Source: Naegleria gruberi
Lineage: Eukaryota
Length of the DNA: 64,000 nucleotides
Reading direction: 5' to 3' (one strand)
NCBI GenBank assembly: GCA_000004985.1
Contig: GG738873.1
Positions within the stretch are counted from its first letter, which is position 1. Every line of letters starts with the position of its first letter. The notes beneath the pieces are model-generated. The model made no database searches. It was not told the DNA's origin and saw only the letters and a program-made list of their open reading frames with translations. The position numbers were made by a program, and so were the translations under genes. Shown piece by piece: positions 9,563 to 19,411 of the stretch.

Positions 9563-11014
9563 ATGCAACATCATACCGTCAGATTATACTCGTTGCTGCT
9601 CATGTTGTTGGTTAGCACAGCGTTGATATGTTCGACATGGACTTTTTCAGCAGCTGTAGAAGGATCAAAACTACCAAGAATAACAACAACAACTATGGAT
9701 TATACTCCATTATTTATGCACTTGGCATTTACATCAGTGCCGACTGAGATGGTGGTTTCATTTCATACCAATGATTATGATGAAAAGATTTTGGGTAAAC
9801 CTTTTGTAAAATATGGAAAGGAGGATACATTAAAGATTGGAGCTAAAGTTTCGTGGATTGGAGCTGTGATTACTCAATATGGTGATGTGAAACATACTGG
9901 ATACGATTTTAATATTTTAATGAAGGATTTGGAATATCAAACCAAGTATTATTATCAAGTTGGGTTTTTGGGAAGTAATGTAACTTCTGGTGTTTATAAT
10001 TTCCATACCAGAACTGATCCAAGATCAATTGATAGTTTTGAAACTACAGTTGTCATGTATGGAGATCAGGGAACAACCAATTCAAAGTATGCCATTGCTC
10101 AAGTTGAGAATTTTATTCATTCTTTTTACAATGACAAGTCGGCAAAGAATATGTTTATTTATCATTTAGGTGATATTTCATACGCTGATGATTGGCCTGG
10201 AATTTTATATCAAGTAATCTGGGCTCGTTATTTAGACATGATGTCAAACATTATGCCATTTGTATCTTACATGACCTTGCCTGGAAATCATGAAAAGGGA
10301 CCAAAAATTCCACCTTATCATTCCTACGAAGAAGGATTTGTTGCTTACAATCATAGATTCTTCATGCCACTCAGAAATGATTCTCGCTTTGGACATAACA
10401 TGTGGCACTCTTTCCAACATGGTCCAATTACCTTTGTGAGTATTGACACCGAAACCAATTTCCCTCACAATTTCTATCCTGAGTACGATTTTAAGGGAGA
10501 TCAAATGAAGTGGTTAGACGAAACTTTGAGCAAAATTGATAGAAAGGTAACACCTTGGGTTATAGTTTTAGGACATAGACCAATTTATACTTCAAAGCAT
10601 GGATTTAGTAATGCTGAAGGTATTCCAGAAGGTCAAGCCATAATTGTCCAAGATGCATTTGAAGAAATATTGTACAAGTATCATGTTGATATTGCCACAT
10701 TTGGGCATGTTCACTCGTATCAGAGAACTTTTCCTACGTACAAGTTACAAGTAGAAACCAAGACTAATTATCACAATTTAAGATATCCTATTCACATTAT
10801 TAATGGAGCTGGTGGTTGCTTGGAAGGAATTACTATTTTCATGCACAAATATTCACCTTGGAGTGCAAAAATTTTCAATGAAGATGAAGCATATGGAATT
10901 TTGAGAACCTCCTATAATCCAACAACCAGAGTACACAAGATTACCTTCAATTTGCATGCTGCTAAAACTAATGAAATTGTAGACACTGTAACAATAACCA
11001 AAGATGCCTATTAA
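9563..11014 (+). CDS. Purple acid phosphatase-like metallophosphoesterase (secreted)
   Basis: All five PAP metal-ligand motifs in order: 'YGDQG', 'GDISYAD', 'LPGNHE', 'VLGHRPIY', 'GHVHSYQR'; N-terminal signal peptide; single exon; A-rich context before ATG. Confidence 0.9.
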   Translation: MQHHTVRLYSLLLMLLVSTALICSTWTFSAAVEGSKLPRITTTTMDYTPLFMHLAFTSVPTEMVVSFHTNDYDEKILGKPFVKYGKEDTLKIGAKVSWIGAVITQYGDVKHTGYDFNILMKDLEYQTKYYYQVGFLGSNVTSGVYNFHTRTDPRSIDSFETTVVMYGDQGTTNSKYAIAQVENFIHSFYNDKSAKNMFIYHLGDISYADDWPGILYQVIWARYLDMMSNIMPFVSYMTLPGNHEKGPKIPPYHSYEEGFVAYNHRFFMPLRNDSRFGHNMWHSFQHGPITFVSIDTETNFPHNFYPEYDFKGDQMKWLDETLSKIDRKVTPWVIVLGHRPIYTSKHGFSNAEGIPEGQAIIVQDAFEEILYKYHVDIATFGHVHSYQRTFPTYKLQVETKTNYHNLRYPIHIINGAGGCLEGITIFMHKYSPWSAKIFNEDEAYGILRTSYNPTTRVHKITFNLHAAKTNEIVDTVTITKDAY

Positions 11015-12364: not shown

Positions 12365-13626
12365 ATGGGTTTAGTAAATAGTCGTCCAGAACATCCGCAC
12401 AATCCACCAAGTAAACCACCATCCAGAAAGAATAATCATCTATCTGATGATGATATGGTCATTAAGAAACTCAAGAAGGGTAATCGTCAAGCACAGAATA
12501 TGCCAGAGGAGGAATTGAGAGAGTGGGCACGTTCATTGTGTAATGAAACTGATTTGAAGGAGTGGTATCTGAATCCGGAATTTGCTACCACTGTTGAACA
12601 TTATGAAAAGTTGGAAAAGGTTAATGCTGCTGCAGTCAATGCTAATTCATCGTCAACTGGTGCAAGTGTATTTTCAAGTACGAGTGAATCAGCCGAAACT
12701 AAACCAACTGAAAATGGCGAAGCTTTTAATTTGGACGATATTGATTTTGATTTGGAAGATATTAGAAAGGATGCTGCTCAACCATTTATGCAAATCGGAA
12801 AGAAAATTAAGATCAAATTGATCATTGCTGAAATTTGTAAATCTGATACACAAAAGGCTTTGAGAAAAATGTTGAGTCCAATTTTGACTAAATTGGATTA
12901 CCAACAACAATTTGGTATGTTCCACTCTGCCCTTGTTATTGGTCCTTGGTATTTAGAGGTATAGTATTTATTCTAATAGTTTCTAATAATATTTTTTGTA
13001 TTCGATTCTTGTCATGAACATATTAATAATAATAATAATAACAACAATGAAAATAGTGGAACAACTCATCCTTATGTATTCCTAGAAAGTGTTATAGTAG
13101 TGCTGCCATGATTGCAGCTGATTTGGAATATCAAGGTGTTGCAACATTTGACTTGACGACAACTATTGAAAAGATTAGTAAGGTTATTATTGATTGGAAT
13201 GTAAATAAGGAATATGACCAACAAAATGCAAATTGCCAACAATTTGTTGATGACATTATCAAAGCTTTGGATGTTCCTGTTGTTTTTACTGGTGTTTTAG
13301 GAGAATATTTGAATAACTTGAGATCAAAGGGTGAATGTAAAATATTCTTCCCAGTGAATGAAAACTTGAGAGAAAAATTTGGTATCAAGGAATCTCAAGT
13401 TGGATTCAAGACCCATGCCGAATTGGATAAATTTGTCAAGGATTTAATCGACAAGGAACCATTGTTTGAACAGGATTATCCTGAGGAATGGAACTTGTTG
13501 AAGAGTTTCGACAGAGCTTTCTGGTTACGTCACTTCCGTCACGATAAAGATCCAACATACCAACCTCATGAATGTCCTTTCAATGATCCATCTGTGACAG
13601 CCAGCTTTAAGAAAGAATGGTTCTAA
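12365..13626 (+). CDS. LRAT / H-rev107-like (NlpC-P60 superfamily) acyltransferase-like protein with N-myristoylation motif; 2 exons
   Basis: MGLVNS N-terminus (MGxxxS); exon 1 ends with His box '..FGMFHSALVIGPWYLE' (cf. RHWAIYVGDGYVVH) and exon 2 carries the 'NCQQFVDDII' Cys box (cf. NCEHFV); intron roughly 12951-13095, donor/acceptor phase not fully resolved. Confidence 0.65.
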
Positions 13627-13872
13627 ACAATGTGTAACATTGCACGTGTTACTGAGCTTGCTGTTCCCAATTTCATTGTACTACTGTATTTATATCAAGT
13701 AAATAAACATTAACCTCAATAATATTTCTTTACCTAAGTTGTTACAAAAATATTCTTAAATGGATGATGCAAATTGATATAGTGATTTGATACTTTGATT
13801 AATGGTGATTGATGCCGCAACCGGTAGTTATCTTCTTTCAAAACAACACTACAAAAAAATAACTGTTCTTCT

Positions 13873-14986
13873 ATGAGGATTTATTGCAGCTGTTACCATT
13901 ACTTGATCTGTCTAATTTTTCTTAGTTCAATATTAAGGAGCTCAAAACTGTCATTAGTCGATTGCCAAGTGACACCCAACAAAAATTTTGTTAAAGCAAT
14001 TGATGTTGCCACTGCCATCTATACTCGTTCTGATGAATGGAGAAGAACATTGGAGGATTATAAAATCATATTCAAAGCACCCGAATGTTCATTGACTGCA
14101 AAAGATTTTCCATCCAATTTAAACTTTTCAAGAAATTACATGACAGTTTGTGGAGAAGTTGAGGCAATATATCCCTGGAAATATGTTCATCATGTTTCGG
14201 GTGAGCTACTTGTAAAAACAATCAGGGAACAATATAAACTTCCCAAACTGGATATGGTATTCCTTAATATCAATACAAGTGAGGGTTATTTCTATTCAAT
14301 GAGAAGGGCTGTCGATTCAGGTAAGTAATTATCATTATCAGCGATATTAGAAGCTCTGATTCAAGGATATTGTGACGTGGCAGTGGCTTCAACAAATTGG
14401 GATTCAGAAAGAGCCAAGGTAGTTCATTTCCAATGTAAGTTTTCCACTTCAAGTTACTAATCACCATGTCATATTATTAATAATATTAACAGGTGCATAC
14501 GCCAGTTCATATTTTGGATTTGTTCGTTCTGAGTTAGATCCACAAATTAAAGTAAGAAATGAAACTGATTTAAATAGACCTGGCTTCAATGTTGTTGTTT
14601 CGATAGGAACAATAACAGACACGTGGGCCACAAACAATCTCAAAAAAGCAAACATTATAAGGCTCACTACGTATGAGGAAGCATTTCAAATGATCCTACA
14701 GAAACAAGTTCACACCTTCATTGCTGATTCACTCGATATGTTTTTGTGGTTATCTCAAAACAGGAACAATTGCTCCACTTGCTATGGTAAGTCTCACTCG
14801 ATTAGCTGATCTGTTAACAATCTAATGATTGAAAGTAAAAGCATTTGGTGAGAATTTGCCATTGGGCTCCTTTGTATCCAACAATTTGGTTGATACATCA
14901 TTTGCCTCAACAAATCAGACAAGTATTTTCCTTCCTCTCTTCTTCATCATTCTGACCACCATAACCATTAAATTTATCACTTACTG
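13873..14986 (+). CDS. Secreted, probably GPI-anchored, solute-binding protein family 3 (periplasmic amino-acid-binding type) paralog 1; 4 exons
   Basis: Signal peptide; 'EGYFYSMRRAVDSG|YCDVAVASTNWDSERAKVVHFQC|AYASSYFGFV' aligns with the GlnH/HisJ core 'G(K)[33 protein letters not shown]'; GTAAGT donors at 14324, 14441, 14787; C-terminal hydrophobic tail after Ser-rich omega region. Confidence 0.7.
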
Positions 14987-15138
14987 ATGTTAGTAAACAT
15001 GTTGGGCATTTAATTTTAAAATACCTCAATACTTATCTCTAAAATCCCATTAGTTTTGACAAATTTAATTAATGGTGATTGATGGCTCATACAATTGCTA
15101 TATCTTCAAACTAGCAAAAAAAAATCCCAATATACTAA

Positions 15139-16254
15139 ATGAGGGTTCATTCTAATTTCATCTATTTCGTCATCATATTTTTTCTTAGTTCATTATTAAG
15201 GAGCTCCAAACTGTCATTAGTCGATTGCCAAGTGACACCCAACAAAAATTTTGTTAAAGCAATTGATGTTGCCACTGCCATCTATACTCGTTCTGATGAA
15301 TGGAGAAGAACATTGGAGGATTATAAAATCATATTCAAAGCACCCGAATGTTCATTGACTGCAAAGGATTTCCCATCCAATTTAAATTTTTCAAGAGATT
15401 ATATGACAGTTTGTGGAGAAGTTGAGGCAGTATATCCCTGGAAACATATTCATCATGTTTCGGGTGAGCTACTTGTAAAAACAATCAGGGAACAATATAA
15501 ACTTCCCAAACTGGATATGGTATTCCTTAATATCAACACGAGTGAGGGTTATTTCTATTCACTGAGAAGAGCTGTCGATTCAGGTAAGTAATTCTCATTA
15601 TCAGAAACAACAAGCATATCTTTCCTATCAAAGGATACTGTGATGTGGTAGTGGCTTCAACAAATTGGGATTCAGAAAGAGCCAAGGCAGTTCACTTCCA
15701 ATGTAAGTTAATATAATTGTTAATTCCTCTAATTTCAATAGGTGCATACGCCAGTTCATATTTTGGATTTGTTCGTTCTGAGTTAGATCCACAAATCAAT
15801 GTAAGAAATGATACTGAAATGGACCGTGCAGGCTTCAACGTTTCTGTCTCAATAGGAACAATAACAGACAAGTGGGCCACAAACAATCTCAAAAAAGCAA
15901 ATATTATCAGGCTTAGTGGATATGAGGAAGCCTTTCAAATGATCCTGCAGAAACAAACGCACACCTTCATTGCTGATTCTCTCGATTTGTTTTTGTGGTT
16001 ATCCCAAAACAAGAACAATTGCTCCACGTGCTATGGTAAGTCTATTCAAGTACAAAACTATATTAATATTATTAAATTAATAATTAATGGTTAAATTATT
16101 AAAATTAGTAAGAGCTTTCGGAGTGAATTTTCCAATCGGTTCCTTCGTATCCAATAATCTAGTTGATACATCATCTGCCTCAACAAATCAGACAAGTATT
16201 TTCCTTCCTCTCTTTCATGTCTTGATCTACATCACTCTCATCATTTGCTTTTAA
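15139..16254 (+). CDS. Secreted, probably GPI-anchored, solute-binding protein family 3 paralog 2 (tandem duplicate of 13873..14986); 4 exons
   Basis: About 1266-bp tandem repeat unit including promoter ('ttaatggtgattgatg' upstream of both); identical exon/intron layout; about 90% identical protein; exon 4 ends ..SIFLPLFHVLIYITLIICF*. Confidence 0.7.
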
Positions 16255-16400
16255 ATCATTTTTTTAATTGAAAAGCAAAAACATTAAATTCTTCCATGTA
16301 AAAAATTGAATGAATTGTCCTTATATGTAATCATTATTACATAGATTAAGCTCTCTTCTTAATAGAATCATGATAATTGAATTTGGATTTAGTTTAAAAA

Positions 16401-17651
16401 ATGGAAAAACAAGCATTTGTGAATGTGCAAGCAAATTCACTCGAATTTCTTGCTAAATATTTGGAGGAAAACAGACAAACTCCAATGGATCATGTAATTA
16501 TTAATAATGAATTATATTCAATTATAGCATCGGGAGGAAATAGAGGGTGCACCATTTACAAAACAACTAATTTTGAAAGCAGCACCAAATGGCAATCCAC
16601 CTTGATCGGAGAATTTGAATTAATTAAAGAGAATCAATCTGATGATGATTTATCCCAAATGTATTGCCTCTCTATTGATAGGAATATTTATATAATTACC
16701 ATCTCTAATAATTCAATGAGTCGTATTCATCGAATTTCTATTCAAAAGTCTGATGAAGAGGAAAATTATGTGGAAACCTTGTTTGAGGATAGTGGTGGTG
16801 ATTTTATTGGAATTGATCCAGGGCTGATTGCAGATTCAAAGAGGAATTGTTTATATTTCATGTTTGGATTGACTGTGGCTGATTCGGCCAAGAAGAATAT
16901 TACCAGATTTGATATTAATACTGGATCTTTTTCTGTTATTGGTGAATTGGATAGGGAATTCTACTGTTTATCCTCAACATTTTGGAAAGATAGATATATA
17001 ATCTTAGTTGGAGGTCTAACAAATTTGACACCTTCATCAGATATTTTGGCTTTTGATGTTGAACAAGGAATTTGGAAGCAAATCTATAGAGCTAAATCAA
17101 TGCCAGTAATTTATCCACGATACATGTCAGGAATTACAATGGTTTCCAATAATTATGCATCTCAATTTCATCCTGAAATTCCAAAAGATTCCAATACTGA
17201 TACGATATTTATTTATGGTGGATTTTTGGATTATGAAGTGGAAGTTAGTGACCATTCAAGATTTTTCATTAGTAGACCCTCTCACGAAGTCATTCTCCAC
17301 TATTTGAAAGAAAGTGAATGGATCGATAATATGGAATCTGATTGTGAGAAGAGAATCCCAATCAGTTTGACTGATATTTGTACACCAGAAGATAGAAAAC
17401 TTGAGAAACTACACATAAGAAGAATAAAAAGTGGCATAGAGGATGACGATGCAGAAGACAGCAATGAATTCAAGATTTTACCCACTTGCACATTTTCCAC
17501 AATACTCCCTCTGAAAATTAGAGGAAGGCAGGAATTATTAATTTTCAGAAATACTGAACAAGTCTTAAAAATTCAATTATTCCACAATAATCCATTCCAC
17601 AGAGAGTCGATGAATAAGAACCCAGATGTCTCAATTCTTTTTTCAGAATGA
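16401..17651 (+). CDS. Kelch/beta-propeller-like hypothetical protein
   Basis: 416-aa ORF with Kelch-like 'ILVGG', 'IFIYGGF' blade motifs; terminated by TGA at 17649. Confidence 0.5.
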   Translation: MEKQAFVNVQANSLEFLAKYLEENRQTPMDHVIINNELYSIIASGGNRGCTIYKTTNFESSTKWQSTLIGEFELIKENQSDDDLSQMYCLSIDRNIYIITISNNSMSRIHRISIQKSDEEENYVETLFEDSGGDFIGIDPGLIADSKRNCLYFMFGLTVADSAKKNITRFDINTGSFSVIGELDREFYCLSSTFWKDRYIILVGGLTNLTPSSDILAFDVEQGIWKQIYRAKSMPVIYPRYMSGITMVSNNYASQFHPEIPKDSNTDTIFIYGGFLDYEVEVSDHSRFFISRPSHEVILHYLKESEWIDNMESDCEKRIPISLTDICTPEDRKLEKLHIRRIKSGIEDDDAEDSNEFKILPTCTFSTILPLKIRGRQELLIFRNTEQVLKIQLFHNNPFHRESMNKNPDVSILFSE

Positions 17652-17705
17652 ACATTGTACAACTTCCGTGTTGTAATGTTGGAACTAGGAAAAAGCCAAA
17701 AAAAA

Positions 17706-18719
17706 ATGTCTTTACATGATGATGATGAACCTGTTACACTTTTCCTAATTGATTTTAGATCGAGAACATTGAATTATTGTATTAATAATTGTGATTATGC
17801 CGATGCAGATGAAAATAACAACATTGCACTCATTCAACAAGAAATGGAATGGTTAAAGAAAAGCTTTAGAAAGCCAAAAACTTTATTTTCCTATCAATTC
17901 GAAAATCCTCCACGAATTTCCTTACCAGAAACTGAGCTCCGATTTGATGTTAAAATTTCATATAGATACGATTGTTTGATTGTTATTGCATCAGACATTT
18001 ATGTTTTTGATCGAAAGTCGAAATTATTGATCAATTCTTTTAAATTTGCAAATGTTGTGCTATCAACTTTGGATGATGAACATGATGAACTGTACGTCAT
18101 GATACCAGACCGAACAAATTACAAAGTTGAGAAGTATTCATTAGGACAATTTATCAGAAGCAAGGAGAAGGAGAAAGCACAACCAATTTGGTCAGTAACT
18201 GCATGCTCTAATCCGTATGGTGCTGTTGTGTTTAATGGTTTGGAGCACAGATATTTGATTATACTTGATAACTCCAGTGATGAAAGTAATTTGATAATAG
18301 TGGATTGTGAGGATGGATCCTTAATTGAAAACACAATTTTTACAGTTCCTCCGAATGGCTATTCGCTAGGAATGATCTCAAGGAAGGAAATAATTGTTGG
18401 GTGCTCAGATATTATTGGAATTTATGAAATTGATGAGAAATCATTTGGTGCCACAAGACAAGCTCTCAATTTGATAGTTTCTGCATCTATGAAGGACGCC
18501 ACAGAATTCTATTCAATTATTCATGACGAATTGAATCGAAAGATTATCCTTTCAAATGCTGATAGTAACTCAATTACAGTTATGAGGAGAGACAATTTAG
18601 AAACAGTACAAACCCATAATTGTGAGGGCTCTGTACGGGGTGTTTCAGGATTGTGTTTGGATGAATATACGGGAGAGCTTTATGTATGCTTTTCAAATGG
18701 ATTGTTAATATACAAGTAG
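17706..18719 (+). CDS. Hypothetical protein (possible beta-propeller); begins 55 bp after the upstream gene's stop, same frame
   Basis: ATG in 'aaaaaaaaATGtct' context; ORF is open in frame back to 17655, separated from the upstream ORF by a single TGA. Confidence 0.5.
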   Translation: MSLHDDDEPVTLFLIDFRSRTLNYCINNCDYADADENNNIALIQQEMEWLKKSFRKPKTLFSYQFENPPRISLPETELRFDVKISYRYDCLIVIASDIYVFDRKSKLLINSFKFANVVLSTLDDEHDELYVMIPDRTNYKVEKYSLGQFIRSKEKEKAQPIWSVTACSNPYGAVVFNGLEHRYLIILDNSSDESNLIIVDCEDGSLIENTIFTVPPNGYSLGMISRKEIIVGCSDIIGIYEIDEKSFGATRQALNLIVSASMKDATEFYSIIHDELNRKIILSNADSNSITVMRRDNLETVQTHNCEGSVRGVSGLCLDEYTGELYVCFSNGLLIYK

Positions 18720-19162: not shown

Positions 19163-19411
19163 TTATGGCAAACCAGGCCAATCCTCTACATATTGGATCT
19201 TAAAATCTGGCCAATCTTCAACAATTTGAATCTTATAATCAGGCCAATCTTCAACAATTTGCCACTTTCCAACACTATCTGGCCAATCATCAACTTGTTT
19301 AACCTTGAGATCTGGCCAATCTTCAACAATTTGAACTTTGTAATCTGGCCAATCTTCTACGAATTTGATTTTGCCATAGATTTGGGCAATTTGATCTTTG
19401 GAAATGGTCAT
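19163..19411 (-). CDS. Small repeat protein: seven tandem 11-residue 'VEDWPDxKxQI' repeats
   Basis: 82-aa ORF MTISKDQIAQIYGKIKF[VEDWPDYKVQI][VEDWPDLKVKQ][VDDWPDSVGKWQI][VEDWPDYKIQI][VEDWPDFKIQY][VEDWPGLP]; ATG start, TAA stop. Confidence 0.5.
   Translation of the reverse strand: MTISKDQIAQIYGKIKFVEDWPDYKVQIVEDWPDLKVKQVDDWPDSVGKWQIVEDWPDYKIQIVEDWPDFKIQYVEDWPGLP
19172..19365. repeat. 33-bp tandem repeat (x6-7) encoding the EDWPD units
   Basis: periodic 'ggccaatcttcaacaatttgaa(t/c)tt..' 33-nt units visible on the plus strand. Confidence 0.7.

What the first reader, a model, noticed from the sequence alone, without database searches (positions are those of the whole stretch)
13780..16260. Tandemly duplicated, intron-containing, GPI-anchored bacterial-type solute-binding protein (SBP_bac_3) genes
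Two paralogs (13873-14986 and 15139-16254), about 1266 bp apart and including the promoter, encode signal peptide + periplasmic amino-acid-binding fold. 'G-YCDVxVASTNWDSERAKxVHFQCAYASSYFGFV' aligns residue-for-residue with the GlnH/HisJ '[35 protein letters not shown]' core. Each has a C-terminal GPI-anchor-like tail. Each has three spliceosomal introns at identical positions, so they are long-domesticated eukaryotic genes and not contamination. A free, cell-surface-tethered amino-acid-binding domain without channel or receptor TM module is unusual. It could be an extracellular nutrient or signal sensor, or an ancient horizontal acquisition.
Basis: partly seen in the sequence, partly recalled or inferred. 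Interest (0 to 1): 0.6.

Follow-up and report, generated by a model that had tools for sequence, protein, structure and literature searches.

The report
Tandem surface-anchored, permuted amino-acid-binding protein genes
Two neighbouring Naegleria gruberi genes each encode a probably lipid-anchored cell-surface protein with the bacterial amino-acid-binding "Venus flytrap" fold, rewired so that its last two helices come first; they belong to an unstudied amoeba gene family and are wrongly merged into one gene in the public annotation.

Summary
Window 13873-14987 and 15139-16254 are two tandem paralogs from Naegleria gruberi, 86% identical in DNA. Each has three GTAAGT..AG phase-1 introns at identical positions. 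Exons are conserved, introns have diverged, and dN/dS is 0.21. Each encodes about 320 aa: signal peptide, one domain, then a GPI-type C-terminal signal.

The domain is a class-F (SBP_bac_3-like) amino-acid-binding fold:
- Single sequences score below Pfam's cut-off (18 vs 26.4 bits).
- A family profile hits solved amino-acid-binding proteins at E=1.5e-20.
- The alpha-carboxylate Arg and alpha-amino Asp are conserved across the family.

1. NCBI model NAEGRDRAFT_68554 fuses the two genes.
2. They belong to a multigene family in Naegleria, Willaertia, another heterolobosean and unidentified eukaryotic contigs.
3. The domain is circularly permuted. The N-terminal helices are homologous to the C-terminal helices of bacterial binding proteins.

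No channel or receptor module lies nearby.

The most likely role is a surface-tethered small-ligand capture or sensing protein. Ligand, partner and anchor are untested. I rate it a new variant of a known kind, of moderate interest.

The parts
13799..13814 (+). Upstream motif TTAATGGTGATTGATG of copy A, 59-74 nt before the ATG
   Evidence: Exact 16-mer found only here and before copy B. Chance expectation is 0.19 per window at up to 2 mismatches. Aligned. No function tested.
13873..14320 (+). Copy A exon 1. Encodes the signal peptide (13873-13962), the permuted N-terminal helices (13969-14070), a Cys/Pro linker, and the first part of lobe 1.
   Evidence: Hydrophobic leader. N-terminal helices at residues 37-51 and 54-62 with block pLDDT 95-97.
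14321..14365 (+). Copy A intron 1 (45 nt, GTAAGT..AG, phase 1)
   Evidence: The acceptor at 14365/14366 gives AVDSGYCDV, which is contiguous in all 25 aligned family members. The NCBI model uses an upstream acceptor that inserts ALIQ.
14366..14434 (+). Copy A exon 2. Contains the Arg165 codon (14410-14412), the conserved alpha-carboxylate ligand.
   Evidence: This position is R in 79 of 80 family sequences. It aligns with the Arg of the TITxER motif in solved binding proteins.
14435..14492 (+). Copy A intron 2 (58 nt, phase 1, within HFQ-C|AY)
   Evidence: The N. lovaniensis gene at L001:8001-9103 has an intron at the same position.
14493..14786 (+). Copy A exon 3. Encodes lobe 2, with Thr212 (14609-14611) and Asp251 (14726-14728).
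   Evidence: Position 212 is T or S in 75 of 78 sequences. Position 251 is D in 61 and E in 8 of 78.
14787..14835 (+). Copy A intron 3 (49 nt, phase 1)
   Evidence: The acceptor at 14835/14836 gives C-Y-V-K-A-F-G, which matches the family spacing C-x-x-x-x-F-G. The alternative acceptor 6 nt downstream would delete two residues.
14836..14987 (+). Copy A exon 4. Encodes the last strands of lobe 1, a linker, the candidate omega site Ser292 (14898-14900), the GPI-type signal (14901-14984) and the stop codon TGA (14985-14987).
   Evidence: In the model, residues 292-299 have low pLDDT and residues 302-319 form a terminal helix.
15069..15084 (+). Upstream motif TTAATGGTGATTGATG of copy B, 55-70 nt before the ATG
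15139..15583 (+). Copy B exon 1. Encodes the signal peptide (15139-15225), the permuted helices (15232-15333), the linker and the start of lobe 1.
   Evidence: 92.6% identical to exon 1 of copy A.
15584..15633 (+). Copy B intron 1 (50 nt, phase 1)
15634..15702 (+). Copy B exon 2. The Arg164 codon is at 15678-15680.
15703..15741 (+). Copy B intron 2 (39 nt, phase 1)
15742..16035 (+). Copy B exon 3. The Asp250 codon is at 15975-15977.
16036..16108 (+). Copy B intron 3 (73 nt, phase 1)
16109..16254 (+). Copy B exon 4. Encodes the end of lobe 1, the candidate omega site Ser291 (16171-16173), the GPI-type signal (16174-16251) and the stop codon TAA (16252-16254).

Best explanation
The region holds two separate, tandemly duplicated Naegleria gruberi genes. 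Both are under purifying selection.

Each encodes a secreted, disulfide-stabilised, N-glycosylatable protein of about 260 mature residues. Its single domain is a circularly permuted class-F (SBP_bac_3-type) two-lobed 'Venus flytrap' binding fold. The two helices that end a bacterial amino-acid-binding protein sit at the N-terminus here, joined to strand 1 by a new Cys/Pro-containing linker. The chain ends right after the last strand of lobe 1. A short Ser/Thr/Asn linker and a C-terminal hydrophobic signal follow. The signal is most likely exchanged for a GPI anchor at about Ser292.

Inferred mechanism: the protein sits on the outer face of the plasma membrane and closes its two lobes around a small ligand that carries an alpha-amino-acid-like head group. 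The carboxylate would bind invariant Arg165. The ammonium would bind Asp251, with help from Thr212.

The protein has no transmembrane or cytoplasmic part. The bound state would therefore have to be read out in one of two ways. It could dock on an unidentified membrane partner, as lipid-anchored bacterial binding proteins dock on transporters, chemoreceptors and kinases. Or it could be taken up by endocytosis, as GPI-anchored nutrient receptors are.

Shown here: gene structure, duplication, selection, fold, permutation, residue conservation and family distribution. Inferred: GPI anchoring, surface location, ligand class and readout.
For: **Gene models and duplication.**. dN/dS is 0.21 over the mature region. 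Exons are 76-93% identical and introns 47-65%.

**Organism and family.**
- The window translation matches N. gruberi XP_002676195.1 / NAEGRDRAFT_68554.
- A full HMMER scan found 386 hits at E<1e-3 and 35 at E<1e-30. Most are 300-340 aa proteins with a leader and a hydrophobic tail.
- Named members come from N. lovaniensis, N. fowleri, Willaertia magna, two more N. gruberi loci and Heterolobosea sp. BB2.

**Fold.**
- The family profile hits AncCDT-1 at 1.5e-20 and glutamate-, glutamine-, arginine- and cysteine-binding proteins at 1e-14 to 1e-7. By contrast GluR0 scores 1e-5 and the NMDA GluN1 ligand-binding domain 3e-4.
- The AlphaFold model has pLDDT 88.3 and pTM 0.76.

**Permutation.**
- A 36-position profile of the N-terminal extension hits only the last 30 or so residues of class-F binding proteins: 5eyf residues 207-237 of 245 at E=1.2e-4, 6h30 at 1.1e-3, 3vv5 at 0.018. 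Seventeen of 23 listed hits are of this kind.
- A single-sequence query gives 9 of 9 such hits.
- Moving the N-terminal segment to the C-terminus raises scores and extends coverage to the end of the profile. P0071 against TIGR01096 goes from 61.7 to 72.8 bits and from profile positions 34-208 to 34-250 of 250. P0109 against GlnH goes from 27.6 to 36.7 bits and from 47-189 to 47-242 of 248.
- The model has helices at 37-51 and 54-62 before strand 1 and none after the last strand, 270-285.

**Binding residues and cysteines.** Position 165 is R in 79/80, position 251 is D or E in 69/78, and position 212 is T or S in 75/78. Six cysteines are conserved.

**Membrane tether.** There are leader and tail hydrophobic peaks and 5-6 N-glycosylation sequons. 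A GPI-like tail occurs in 47 of 59 family members with complete tails.
Against: - Neither window protein alone reaches Pfam's SBP_bac_3 gathering score: 18 vs 26.4 bits.
- For copy A itself the de-permutation gain is negligible, 23.9 to 24.4 bits. A local hhalign of the N-terminal extension against bacterial units was not significant, P=0.11. The permutation is therefore established at family level and by model topology, not from copy A's sequence alone.
- I could not read the model coordinates. Where the N-terminal helices pack, and how the cleft is shaped, were not inspected.
- GPI anchoring rests on a home-made heuristic. Some family members instead have a true transmembrane helix with a basic tail (P0136) or an N-terminal signal anchor (P0060, P0071).
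- No ligand, partner, expression or localisation data exist. Searches for the locus identifiers found no paper.
- Residues that line the side-chain pocket in bacterial proteins are not conserved (position 99). The ligand need not be a standard amino acid.
Confidence: 0.6

Rival explanations
1. The current NCBI/JGI model is right: one gene (NAEGRDRAFT_68554, 462 aa) encodes a cytosolic or otherwise unanchored protein with two tandem binding domains.
For: This is the deposited model. Tandem binding domains do exist in bacteria, for example GlnPQ and the multi-domain fusions seen.
Against: - The model starts at Met90 of copy A, inside strand 1.
- It inserts ALIQ where all 25 relatives are contiguous.
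- It then splices over copy A's last exon, its stop codon, the intergenic region and copy B's start and leader.
- Every homolog in N. lovaniensis, N. fowleri and Willaertia is a single-domain protein of 300-340 aa, apart from one apparently fused 557-aa Willaertia model (P0012), and nearly all have their own hydrophobic tail; most also show a leader.
- Both copies keep an in-frame ATG, leader, tail and stop. The proximal upstream motif is duplicated as well.
Confidence: 0.04
2. The gene products are as described, but the C-terminal hydrophobic stretch is a permanent single-pass or tail anchor rather than a cleaved GPI signal.
For: The tail is about 20 hydrophobic residues, long enough to span a bilayer. 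Related proteins use other anchors: P0136 has a transmembrane helix plus the basic tail RFVRQRRNYDGI, and P0060 and P0071 have N-terminal anchors. No dedicated GPI predictor was run.
Against: The hydrophobic stretch runs to the very C-terminus with no cytoplasmic residues. It is preceded by a polar spacer of about 6-8 residues and a small-residue triplet, S-F-A in copy A and S-S-A in copy B. The same pattern occurs in 47 of 59 relatives. This is the canonical GPI signal layout as established in the field.
Confidence: 0.2
3. The fold is kept but small-molecule capture is not the function. The proteins would be an enzyme of the cyclohexadienyl-dehydratase type, or a structural, adhesive or antigenic surface-coat family.
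For: Cyclohexadienyl dehydratases and their reconstructed ancestors are among the best sequence and fold matches. The family is multigenic, glycosylated and surface-tethered, like many protist coat proteins. The side-chain pocket positions vary.
Against: - The top 'CDT' hits are AncCDT-1 and AncQR, which are binding proteins, not enzymes.
- The Arg/Asp pair that binds the amino-acid head group is almost invariant across about 80 divergent sequences. A mere scaffold would not be expected to keep it.
- dN/dS is low, unlike diversifying coat antigens.
- An extracellular prephenate or arogenate dehydratase has no obvious substrate. This last point is inference.
Confidence: 0.13
4. The genes are bacterial contamination or a recent bacterial transfer, or they are exons of a larger glutamate-receptor-like gene.
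For: The domain type is overwhelmingly bacterial. Ionotropic glutamate receptors contain a related domain.
Against: - Each gene has three spliceosomal introns, host-like GC of about 35%, and eukaryotic neighbours on a 462-kb scaffold.
- The best bacterial single-domain proteins score only about 50-64 bits against the family profile, while family members score above 200.
- Each copy starts with a leader and ends with a stop.
- No transmembrane channel exons lie within 4 kb on either side.
- Sequence similarity is closer to bacterial ABC-type binding proteins than to receptor ligand-binding domains.
Confidence: 0.02

Closest known systems
Bacterial class-F (family 3) polar amino-acid-binding proteins of ABC importers (GlnH/GlnBP, HisJ, LAOBP, ArgBP, ArtJ; Pfam SBP_bac_3)
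   Different: The domain is circularly permuted: the C-terminal helices have moved to the N-terminus. It has six conserved cysteines, N-glycosylation sites, a eukaryotic leader and a GPI-type signal. The genes contain introns. No ABC importer or other partner is encoded nearby. Pfam's gathering score is not reached by the window proteins.
Ligand-binding domain (S1S2) of ionotropic glutamate receptors, including bacterial GluR0 and plant GLRs
   Different: The domain is not split by a channel module. There are no transmembrane exons, and each gene is a free-standing single domain. Sequence similarity is weaker than to ABC-type binding proteins: 1e-5 to 3e-4 against 1e-20.
PfVFT1 (Plasmodium falciparum PF3D7_0606800, PDB 5jkq), a free-standing secreted Venus-flytrap protein of a protist
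   Different: No sequence-level similarity was detected: it is absent from the profile hits. It is reported to have no identifiable membrane anchor and to be probably not GPI-anchored (PMC13199436). I could not read the structure paper, so its topology was not compared.
Tp0684 (MglB-2) of Treponema pallidum, a naturally circularly permuted glucose-binding lipoprotein
   Same: It is a precedent for a natural topological rearrangement of a periplasmic-binding-protein fold that keeps ligand binding, in a lipid-anchored protein (PMC4990184, title and abstract, found).
   Different: It is bacterial, belongs to the sugar-binding class rather than class F, and has a different break point. It is unrelated in sequence.
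GPI-anchored eukaryotic ligand-capture proteins and co-receptors (folate receptor alpha, melanotransferrin, GFR-alpha, trypanosome transferrin receptor)
   Same: The architectural logic is the same: a high-affinity extracellular binding domain with no cytoplasmic part. It works either through endocytosis or by presenting the ligand to a transmembrane partner (general knowledge). Melanotransferrin also has a periplasmic-binding-protein-type fold.
   Different: They are not homologous at the sequence level, and none is a class-F amino-acid-binding domain. The comparison is functional analogy only and was not tested here.

Membership tests
Pfam SBP_bac_3 (PF00497) / class-F type II solute-binding proteins | Whole-protein score above Pfam's gathering threshold | tested here: not met
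   Copy A scores 18.1 bits and copy B 18.3 bits against a cut-off of 26.4, at E about 0.002. Thirteen of 25 family members match at E<0.01, the best at 9.8e-8.
Pfam SBP_bac_3 (PF00497) / class-F type II solute-binding proteins | Significant sequence homology to experimentally solved members | tested here: met
   phmmer of copy A hits AncCDT-1 at E=3.5e-6. The family profile gives 1.5e-20, with 58 PDB sequences at E<1e-3, all of them solute-binding proteins or proteins built on the same fold (dehydratase and chorismate-mutase fusions, MltF, glutamate-receptor ligand-binding domains). NCBIfam LAO and GlnH models hit at E=2.5e-5 and 6e-5.
Pfam SBP_bac_3 (PF00497) / class-F type II solute-binding proteins | Two alpha/beta lobes joined by a two-strand hinge | tested here: met
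   [not shown]
Pfam SBP_bac_3 (PF00497) / class-F type II solute-binding proteins | Canonical chain order: strand 1 at the N-terminus and two helices after the last strand at the C-terminus | tested here: not met
   The homolog of the C-terminal helices is at the N-terminus. The model has helices 37-51 and 54-62 before strand 1 and none after strand 270-285.
Pfam SBP_bac_3 (PF00497) / class-F type II solute-binding proteins | Arg (alpha-carboxylate) and Asp/Glu (alpha-ammonium) ligand residues | tested here: met
   R165 aligns with the Arg of TITxER and D251 with the Asp of the (V/L)xD motif. Conservation is R in 79/80, and D in 61 plus E in 8 of 78. Actual binding was not tested.
Pfam SBP_bac_3 (PF00497) / class-F type II solute-binding proteins | Works with a cognate membrane partner (ABC importer, chemoreceptor or sensor kinase) | not testable with these tools
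   No such gene lies next to the pair. Eukaryotic gene order is not informative. Interaction experiments are needed.
Ionotropic glutamate receptor ligand-binding domain | Binding domain split into S1 and S2 by a pore-forming transmembrane module in the same polypeptide | tested here: not met
   The domain is continuous within each gene. Each gene starts with a leader and ends with a stop. There are no transmembrane exons in the flanks.
GPI-anchored proteins | Cleavable N-terminal signal peptide | tested here: inconclusive
   A hydrophobic leader follows a basic residue, with Kyte-Doolittle windows above 1.6 at residues 3-24. No SignalP-type predictor was available.
GPI-anchored proteins | C-terminal signal: small omega and omega+2 residues, a polar spacer, and a hydrophobic tail that ends the protein | tested here: met
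   In copy A the pattern is S292-F-A, a spacer STNQTS, then 20 hydrophobic residues to the C-terminus. Copy B has S-S-A. The same layout occurs in 47 of 59 relatives by my own heuristic.
GPI-anchored proteins | Biochemical evidence of the anchor (PI-PLC release, ethanolamine-phosphate-linked C-terminus) | not testable with these tools
   This needs experiments. I also did not verify here that Naegleria has a GPI transamidase. One paper's abstract states the complex is conserved among all eukaryotes (PMC9098846).
Cyclohexadienyl dehydratase (enzyme derived from this fold) | Catalytic residues and dehydratase activity | not tested
   Only overall similarity was seen. The closest 'CDT' entries are non-catalytic reconstructed ancestors.

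The most novel reading that the evidence does not exclude
This heterolobosean family could be the ligand-recognition half of a two-part eukaryotic surface receptor. A GPI-anchored, circularly permuted amino-acid-binding protein would close on a prey- or environment-derived amino acid or related metabolite. It would then dock on a transmembrane signalling protein, for example one of Naegleria's many receptor-type cyclases or kinases. The output would be chemotaxis, feeding or the amoeba-to-flagellate switch. That would be the first binding-protein-dependent chemosensing system described in a eukaryote. It would have arisen from a tandem bacterial binding-domain gene by duplication and end-trimming.
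Probability: 0.12. Interest if true: 0.8.

Novelty: new variant of a known kind. Interest (0 to 1): 0.55.

Why it matters
Free-standing amino-acid-binding 'Venus flytrap' domains are the textbook ancestors of glutamate-receptor ligand-binding domains. In eukaryotes they are known almost only as parts of channels and receptors. Here they are stand-alone, probably lipid-anchored surface proteins, expanded into a family in a deep-branching amoeboflagellate lineage that includes the pathogen N. fowleri.

The natural circular permutation is a clean case for studying how this fold tolerates rewiring. It points to an origin from tandem binding domains, and it shows a break point that may interest biosensor engineers.

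There are two practical consequences. The public gene model NAEGRDRAFT_68554 should be split in two. The N. fowleri members are candidate surface proteins with predicted ligand pockets.

Tried and rejected
- **First structure prediction.** A three-sequence alignment gave an unusable model, pLDDT 38. It was replaced by a 25-sequence alignment.
- **Word-indexed homolog search.** It returned only 2 hits for the single protein and 4 for the alignment. The exhaustive HMMER scan was needed.
- **Local hhalign test of the permutation.** Comparing the N-terminal extension with 64 bacterial domain units was not significant, P=0.11. Native and de-permuted family profiles scored the same, about 157. The permutation became significant only with a 52-sequence profile against PDB and with the de-permutation test on the more bacterial-like members.
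- **Unavailable resources.** The afdb50 fold library was not available. Model coordinates are not exposed, so I could not inspect packing or run a permutation-aware superposition.
- **Literature.** Searches on locus identifiers, Naegleria plus solute-binding or GPI, and SBP_bac_3 in eukaryotes found nothing specific. The PfVFT1 structure paper (PMC5563136) is not held.
- **Synteny.** The nearest N. lovaniensis homolog is a single copy among unrelated neighbours. The tandem duplication is therefore N. gruberi-lineage specific, and gene context gives no functional clue.
- **Metagenomic relatives.** Contigs carrying distant relatives gave no taxonomic information beyond eukaryote-like neighbours.
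- **Rejected explanations.** Contamination or recent transfer, a glutamate-receptor fragment, and the single fused gene are all rejected; see the rival explanations.
Full report
**1. What is in the sequence**

The window has about 34% GC throughout. The region at 13.8-16.3 kb contains two head-to-tail copies of one gene. I translated all frames and joined exons at GTAAGT..AG introns. This gives two complete reading frames.

| | Copy A | Copy B |
|---|---|---|
| Exon 1 | 13873-14320 | 15139-15583 |
| Exon 2 | 14366-14434 | 15634-15702 |
| Exon 3 | 14493-14786 | 15742-16035 |
| Exon 4 | 14836-14987 | 16109-16254 |
| Product | 320 aa | 317 aa |

- The three introns in each copy are 39-73 nt. All are phase 1 and lie at identical codon positions.
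- blastn aligns 13913-14941 with 15176-16214 at 86% identity.
- Exons are 76-93% identical and introns only 47-65%. Over the mature protein dN/dS is 0.21. Both copies are therefore maintained by selection.
- Upstream, only a 16-nt exact motif and about 85 nt of weak similarity are shared.
- tblastn finds no third copy in the window.

Homology settles two ambiguous acceptors. AVDSG-YCDV is contiguous, and C-x4-FG is spaced the same way, in all 25 aligned relatives. This favours exon starts at 14366 and 14836 in copy A, and at 16109 in copy B.

**2. Whose genes they are, and the existing annotation**

The best database match is N. gruberi 'predicted protein' XP_002676195.1 / NAEGRDRAFT_68554 / D2VI43. 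It is 462 aa and lies on a 462-kb scaffold. Its sequence shows it is a chimera:

- It starts at Met90 of copy A.
- It uses an upstream acceptor that inserts ALIQ.
- It splices from the end of copy A exon 3 into the middle of copy B exon 1.
- It thereby skips copy A's last exon and stop codon, and copy B's start and leader.

Homologs elsewhere are single-domain proteins of 300-340 aa, and nearly all have their own hydrophobic tail; most also show a leader. One apparently fused 557-aa Willaertia model (P0012, section 10) is the exception. The two-gene reading is much better supported.

**3. A family, not a one-off**

I ran an exhaustive HMMER scan of 1.84 billion representative proteins with a small profile. 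It gave 386 hits at E<1e-3, 105 at E<1e-10 and 35 at E<1e-30. Members with names come from several sources:

- N. lovaniensis: at least six genes, several auto-named by UniProt 'Solute-binding protein family 3/N-terminal domain-containing protein'.
- N. fowleri: FDP41_012477 and FDP41_000021.
- Willaertia magna: at least seven genes.
- N. gruberi: two further loci, NAEGRDRAFT_76161 and NAEGRDRAFT_54397.
- Heterolobosea sp. BB2.

Many more are unnamed metagenomic or read-archive contigs. One of these carries a eukaryotic THO-complex gene as a neighbour.

The closest N. lovaniensis gene is a single copy among unrelated neighbours. It shares the intron inside HFQ-C|AY. The genes are thus old residents of these genomes, and the tandem duplication is specific to the N. 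gruberi lineage.

Lower-ranking hits are bacterial proteins with 3-8 tandem binding domains fused to an ABC permease. They rank high only because their domain scores add up. Single bacterial domains score about 50-64 bits, so no close bacterial donor is visible.

**4. The fold**

- Alone, each window protein hits Pfam SBP_bac_3 only weakly: E=0.002, 18 bits, against a cut-off of 26.4.
- A 25-member family profile raises this to 1.5e-20. It lists 58 solved proteins at E<1e-3, all of them solute-binding proteins or proteins built on the same fold. GluR0 (1e-5) and NMDA-receptor domains (3e-4) are far behind the ABC-type binding proteins.
- The first structure prediction failed. With the family alignment, AlphaFold gave pLDDT 88.3 and pTM 0.76.
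- Foldseek's best matches are ligand-bound tryptophan-, arginine-, glutamine-, glutamate- and cysteine-binding proteins. E goes down to 1e-14 and target-normalised TM-score reaches 0.70. Closed forms fit better than open ones.

**5. The domain is circularly permuted**

The family has about 55 extra residues before strand 1, and it ends immediately after the last strand. Several independent observations show that the extra N-terminal helices are the missing C-terminal helices.

1. The N-terminal segment of one relative (P0060...LRTAISAALKEVMANSEWDTIYYKWFNES...) was searched against all 177,635 distinct PDB sequences. It returned nine hits. All nine are class-F binding proteins, and all match within their last 30 or so residues.
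2. A 36-position profile of this segment, built from 52 family members, makes the match significant. It hits 5eyf residues 207-237 of 245 at E=1.2e-4, the GlnPQ tandem 6h30 at 1.1e-3, and 3vv5 at 0.018. Seventeen of 23 listed hits are the same element.
3. Moving the segment to the C-terminus in silico raises scores against curated bacterial models and extends the alignment to the end of the profile:

| Protein | Model | Native | De-permuted |
|---|---|---|---|
| P0071 | TIGR01096 | 61.7 bits, profile 34-208/250 | 72.8 bits, profile 34-250/250 |
| P0071 | GlnH | 46.6 bits | 55.3 bits |
| P0109 | GlnH | 27.6 bits, profile 47-189/248 | 36.7 bits, profile 47-242/248 |

4. The model's secondary structure has helices of 15 and 9 residues (37-51 and 54-62, block pLDDT 95-97) ahead of strand 1. 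There is no helix after strand 270-285.

There are caveats. For copy A alone the de-permutation gain is negligible. A local profile-profile test was not significant. I could not inspect coordinates.

A natural permuted binding protein is known in bacteria (Tp0684; PMC4990184). I found none for this class or in eukaryotes. The match to the helices between SBD1 and SBD2 of GlnPQ suggests an origin from a tandem domain pair by loss of both ends. That is inference.

**6. Binding-site and extracellular features**

Across 105 family sequences:

- The Arg aligned with the alpha-carboxylate-binding Arg of GlnBP, HisJ and glutamate receptors is R in 79 of 80.
- The Asp aligned with the alpha-ammonium-binding Asp is D in 61 and E in 8 of 78.
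- The Gly-Thr/Ser of lobe 2 is kept in 75 of 78.
- Six cysteines (positions 72, 93, 152, 173, 266 and 269) are each conserved in at least 87% of the sequences that cover them.
- A His (246) and an Arg (184) are family-specific conserved residues of unknown role.
- Positions that contact the ligand side chain in bacterial proteins vary.

The proteins carry 5-6 N-glycosylation sequons. The assignment of ligand roles rests on the alignments plus established structural knowledge of GlnBP, HisJ, LAOBP and GluA2. It was not checked in the model.

**7. Membrane tether**

Both proteins have a hydrophobic leader and a hydrophobic C-terminal tail of about 20 residues that ends the protein. The tail is preceded by a polar spacer of about 6 residues and by S-F-A (copy A) or S-S-A (copy B).

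By a simple rule, 47 of 59 relatives with complete tails look the same. The rule requires a terminal hydrophobic window, at most one charge after it, and a small omega/omega+2 pair 4-14 residues upstream.

A few relatives use a real transmembrane helix with a basic tail, or an N-terminal anchor. One carries EGF-like repeats. The common theme is an extracellular, membrane-tethered binding domain with no signalling domain.

**8. Context**

The neighbours are a purple-acid-phosphatase-like gene at 9563-11014, ORFs with no Pfam match at 12365-12964, 13108-13626 and 17655-18719, and a Kelch-repeat ORF at 16401-17651. None is a channel, transporter or receptor.

**9. Interpretation and standing**

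These are two genes for probably GPI-anchored, circularly permuted class-F binding proteins from a heterolobosean family.

The conserved Arg/Asp pair argues that they still bind an amino-acid-like ligand at the cell surface. Whether they hand it to a membrane partner or carry it in by endocytosis is unknown. Enzyme or coat-protein roles are less likely but not excluded.

The closest eukaryotic analogue I found is PfVFT1 of P. falciparum, a secreted free Venus-flytrap protein of unknown function (PMC13199436). No publication mentions these loci.

I rate the finding a new variant of a known kind, with interest 0.55.

**10. Noticed along the way**

- The 5' part of exon 1 has dS of 0.10, against 0.28 elsewhere.
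- The bacterial multi-domain fusions begin with a half domain.
- One Willaertia gene model joins an ABCB-like fragment to a family domain.
- An ORF of 'EDWPD' repeats lies at 19163-19411.

Noticed in passing
window 13945-14140 vs 15208-15403 (residues 25-90 of both copies): The 5' part of exon 1 is almost identical between the copies: dS 0.10 and dN 0.006, against dS 0.28 for residues 91-298. This suggests gene conversion, or extra constraint, over the permuted-helix and linker region.
   Followed up: partly
window 13873-16254; NCBI XP_002676195.1 (P0001): The public gene model NAEGRDRAFT_68554 is a chimera of the two genes. It lacks both leaders and copy A's tail, and it should be split.
   Followed up: yes
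window 19163-19411 (-): An 82-aa ORF made almost entirely of tandem repeats of about 11 residues, of the form VEDWPDYKVQI. The opposite strand has a mirror ORF.
   Followed up: no
window 9563-11014 (+): An intron-less ORF of 483 aa with a hydrophobic leader and purple-acid-phosphatase domains (Pur_ac_phosph_N, Metallophos, Metallophos_C). It is probably a secreted phosphatase.
   Followed up: partly
proteins P0050, P0054, P0093 and about 40 similar bacterial hits: Bacterial proteins with 3-8 tandem binding domains fused to an ABC permease all begin, right after the leader, with a half domain (lobe 2 only; family-profile positions about 190-256). Their repeat register is therefore itself offset from the canonical domain boundary. 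This may bear on how the permutation arose.
   Followed up: no
L003:6001-9229 (Willaertia magna KAL9652493.1, P0012): The gene model joins an ABCB-type transporter fragment (end of the membrane domain plus Walker A) to a complete family member with its own leader. This is probably another fused annotation. If real, it would link the family to an ABC protein.
   Followed up: partly
protein P0062 (1013 aa, read-archive contig): A family domain in the same permuted order is followed by about 750 residues rich in EGF-like cysteine repeats. The domain is therefore also used at the tip of large surface proteins.
   Followed up: no
[not shown]
   Followed up: partly
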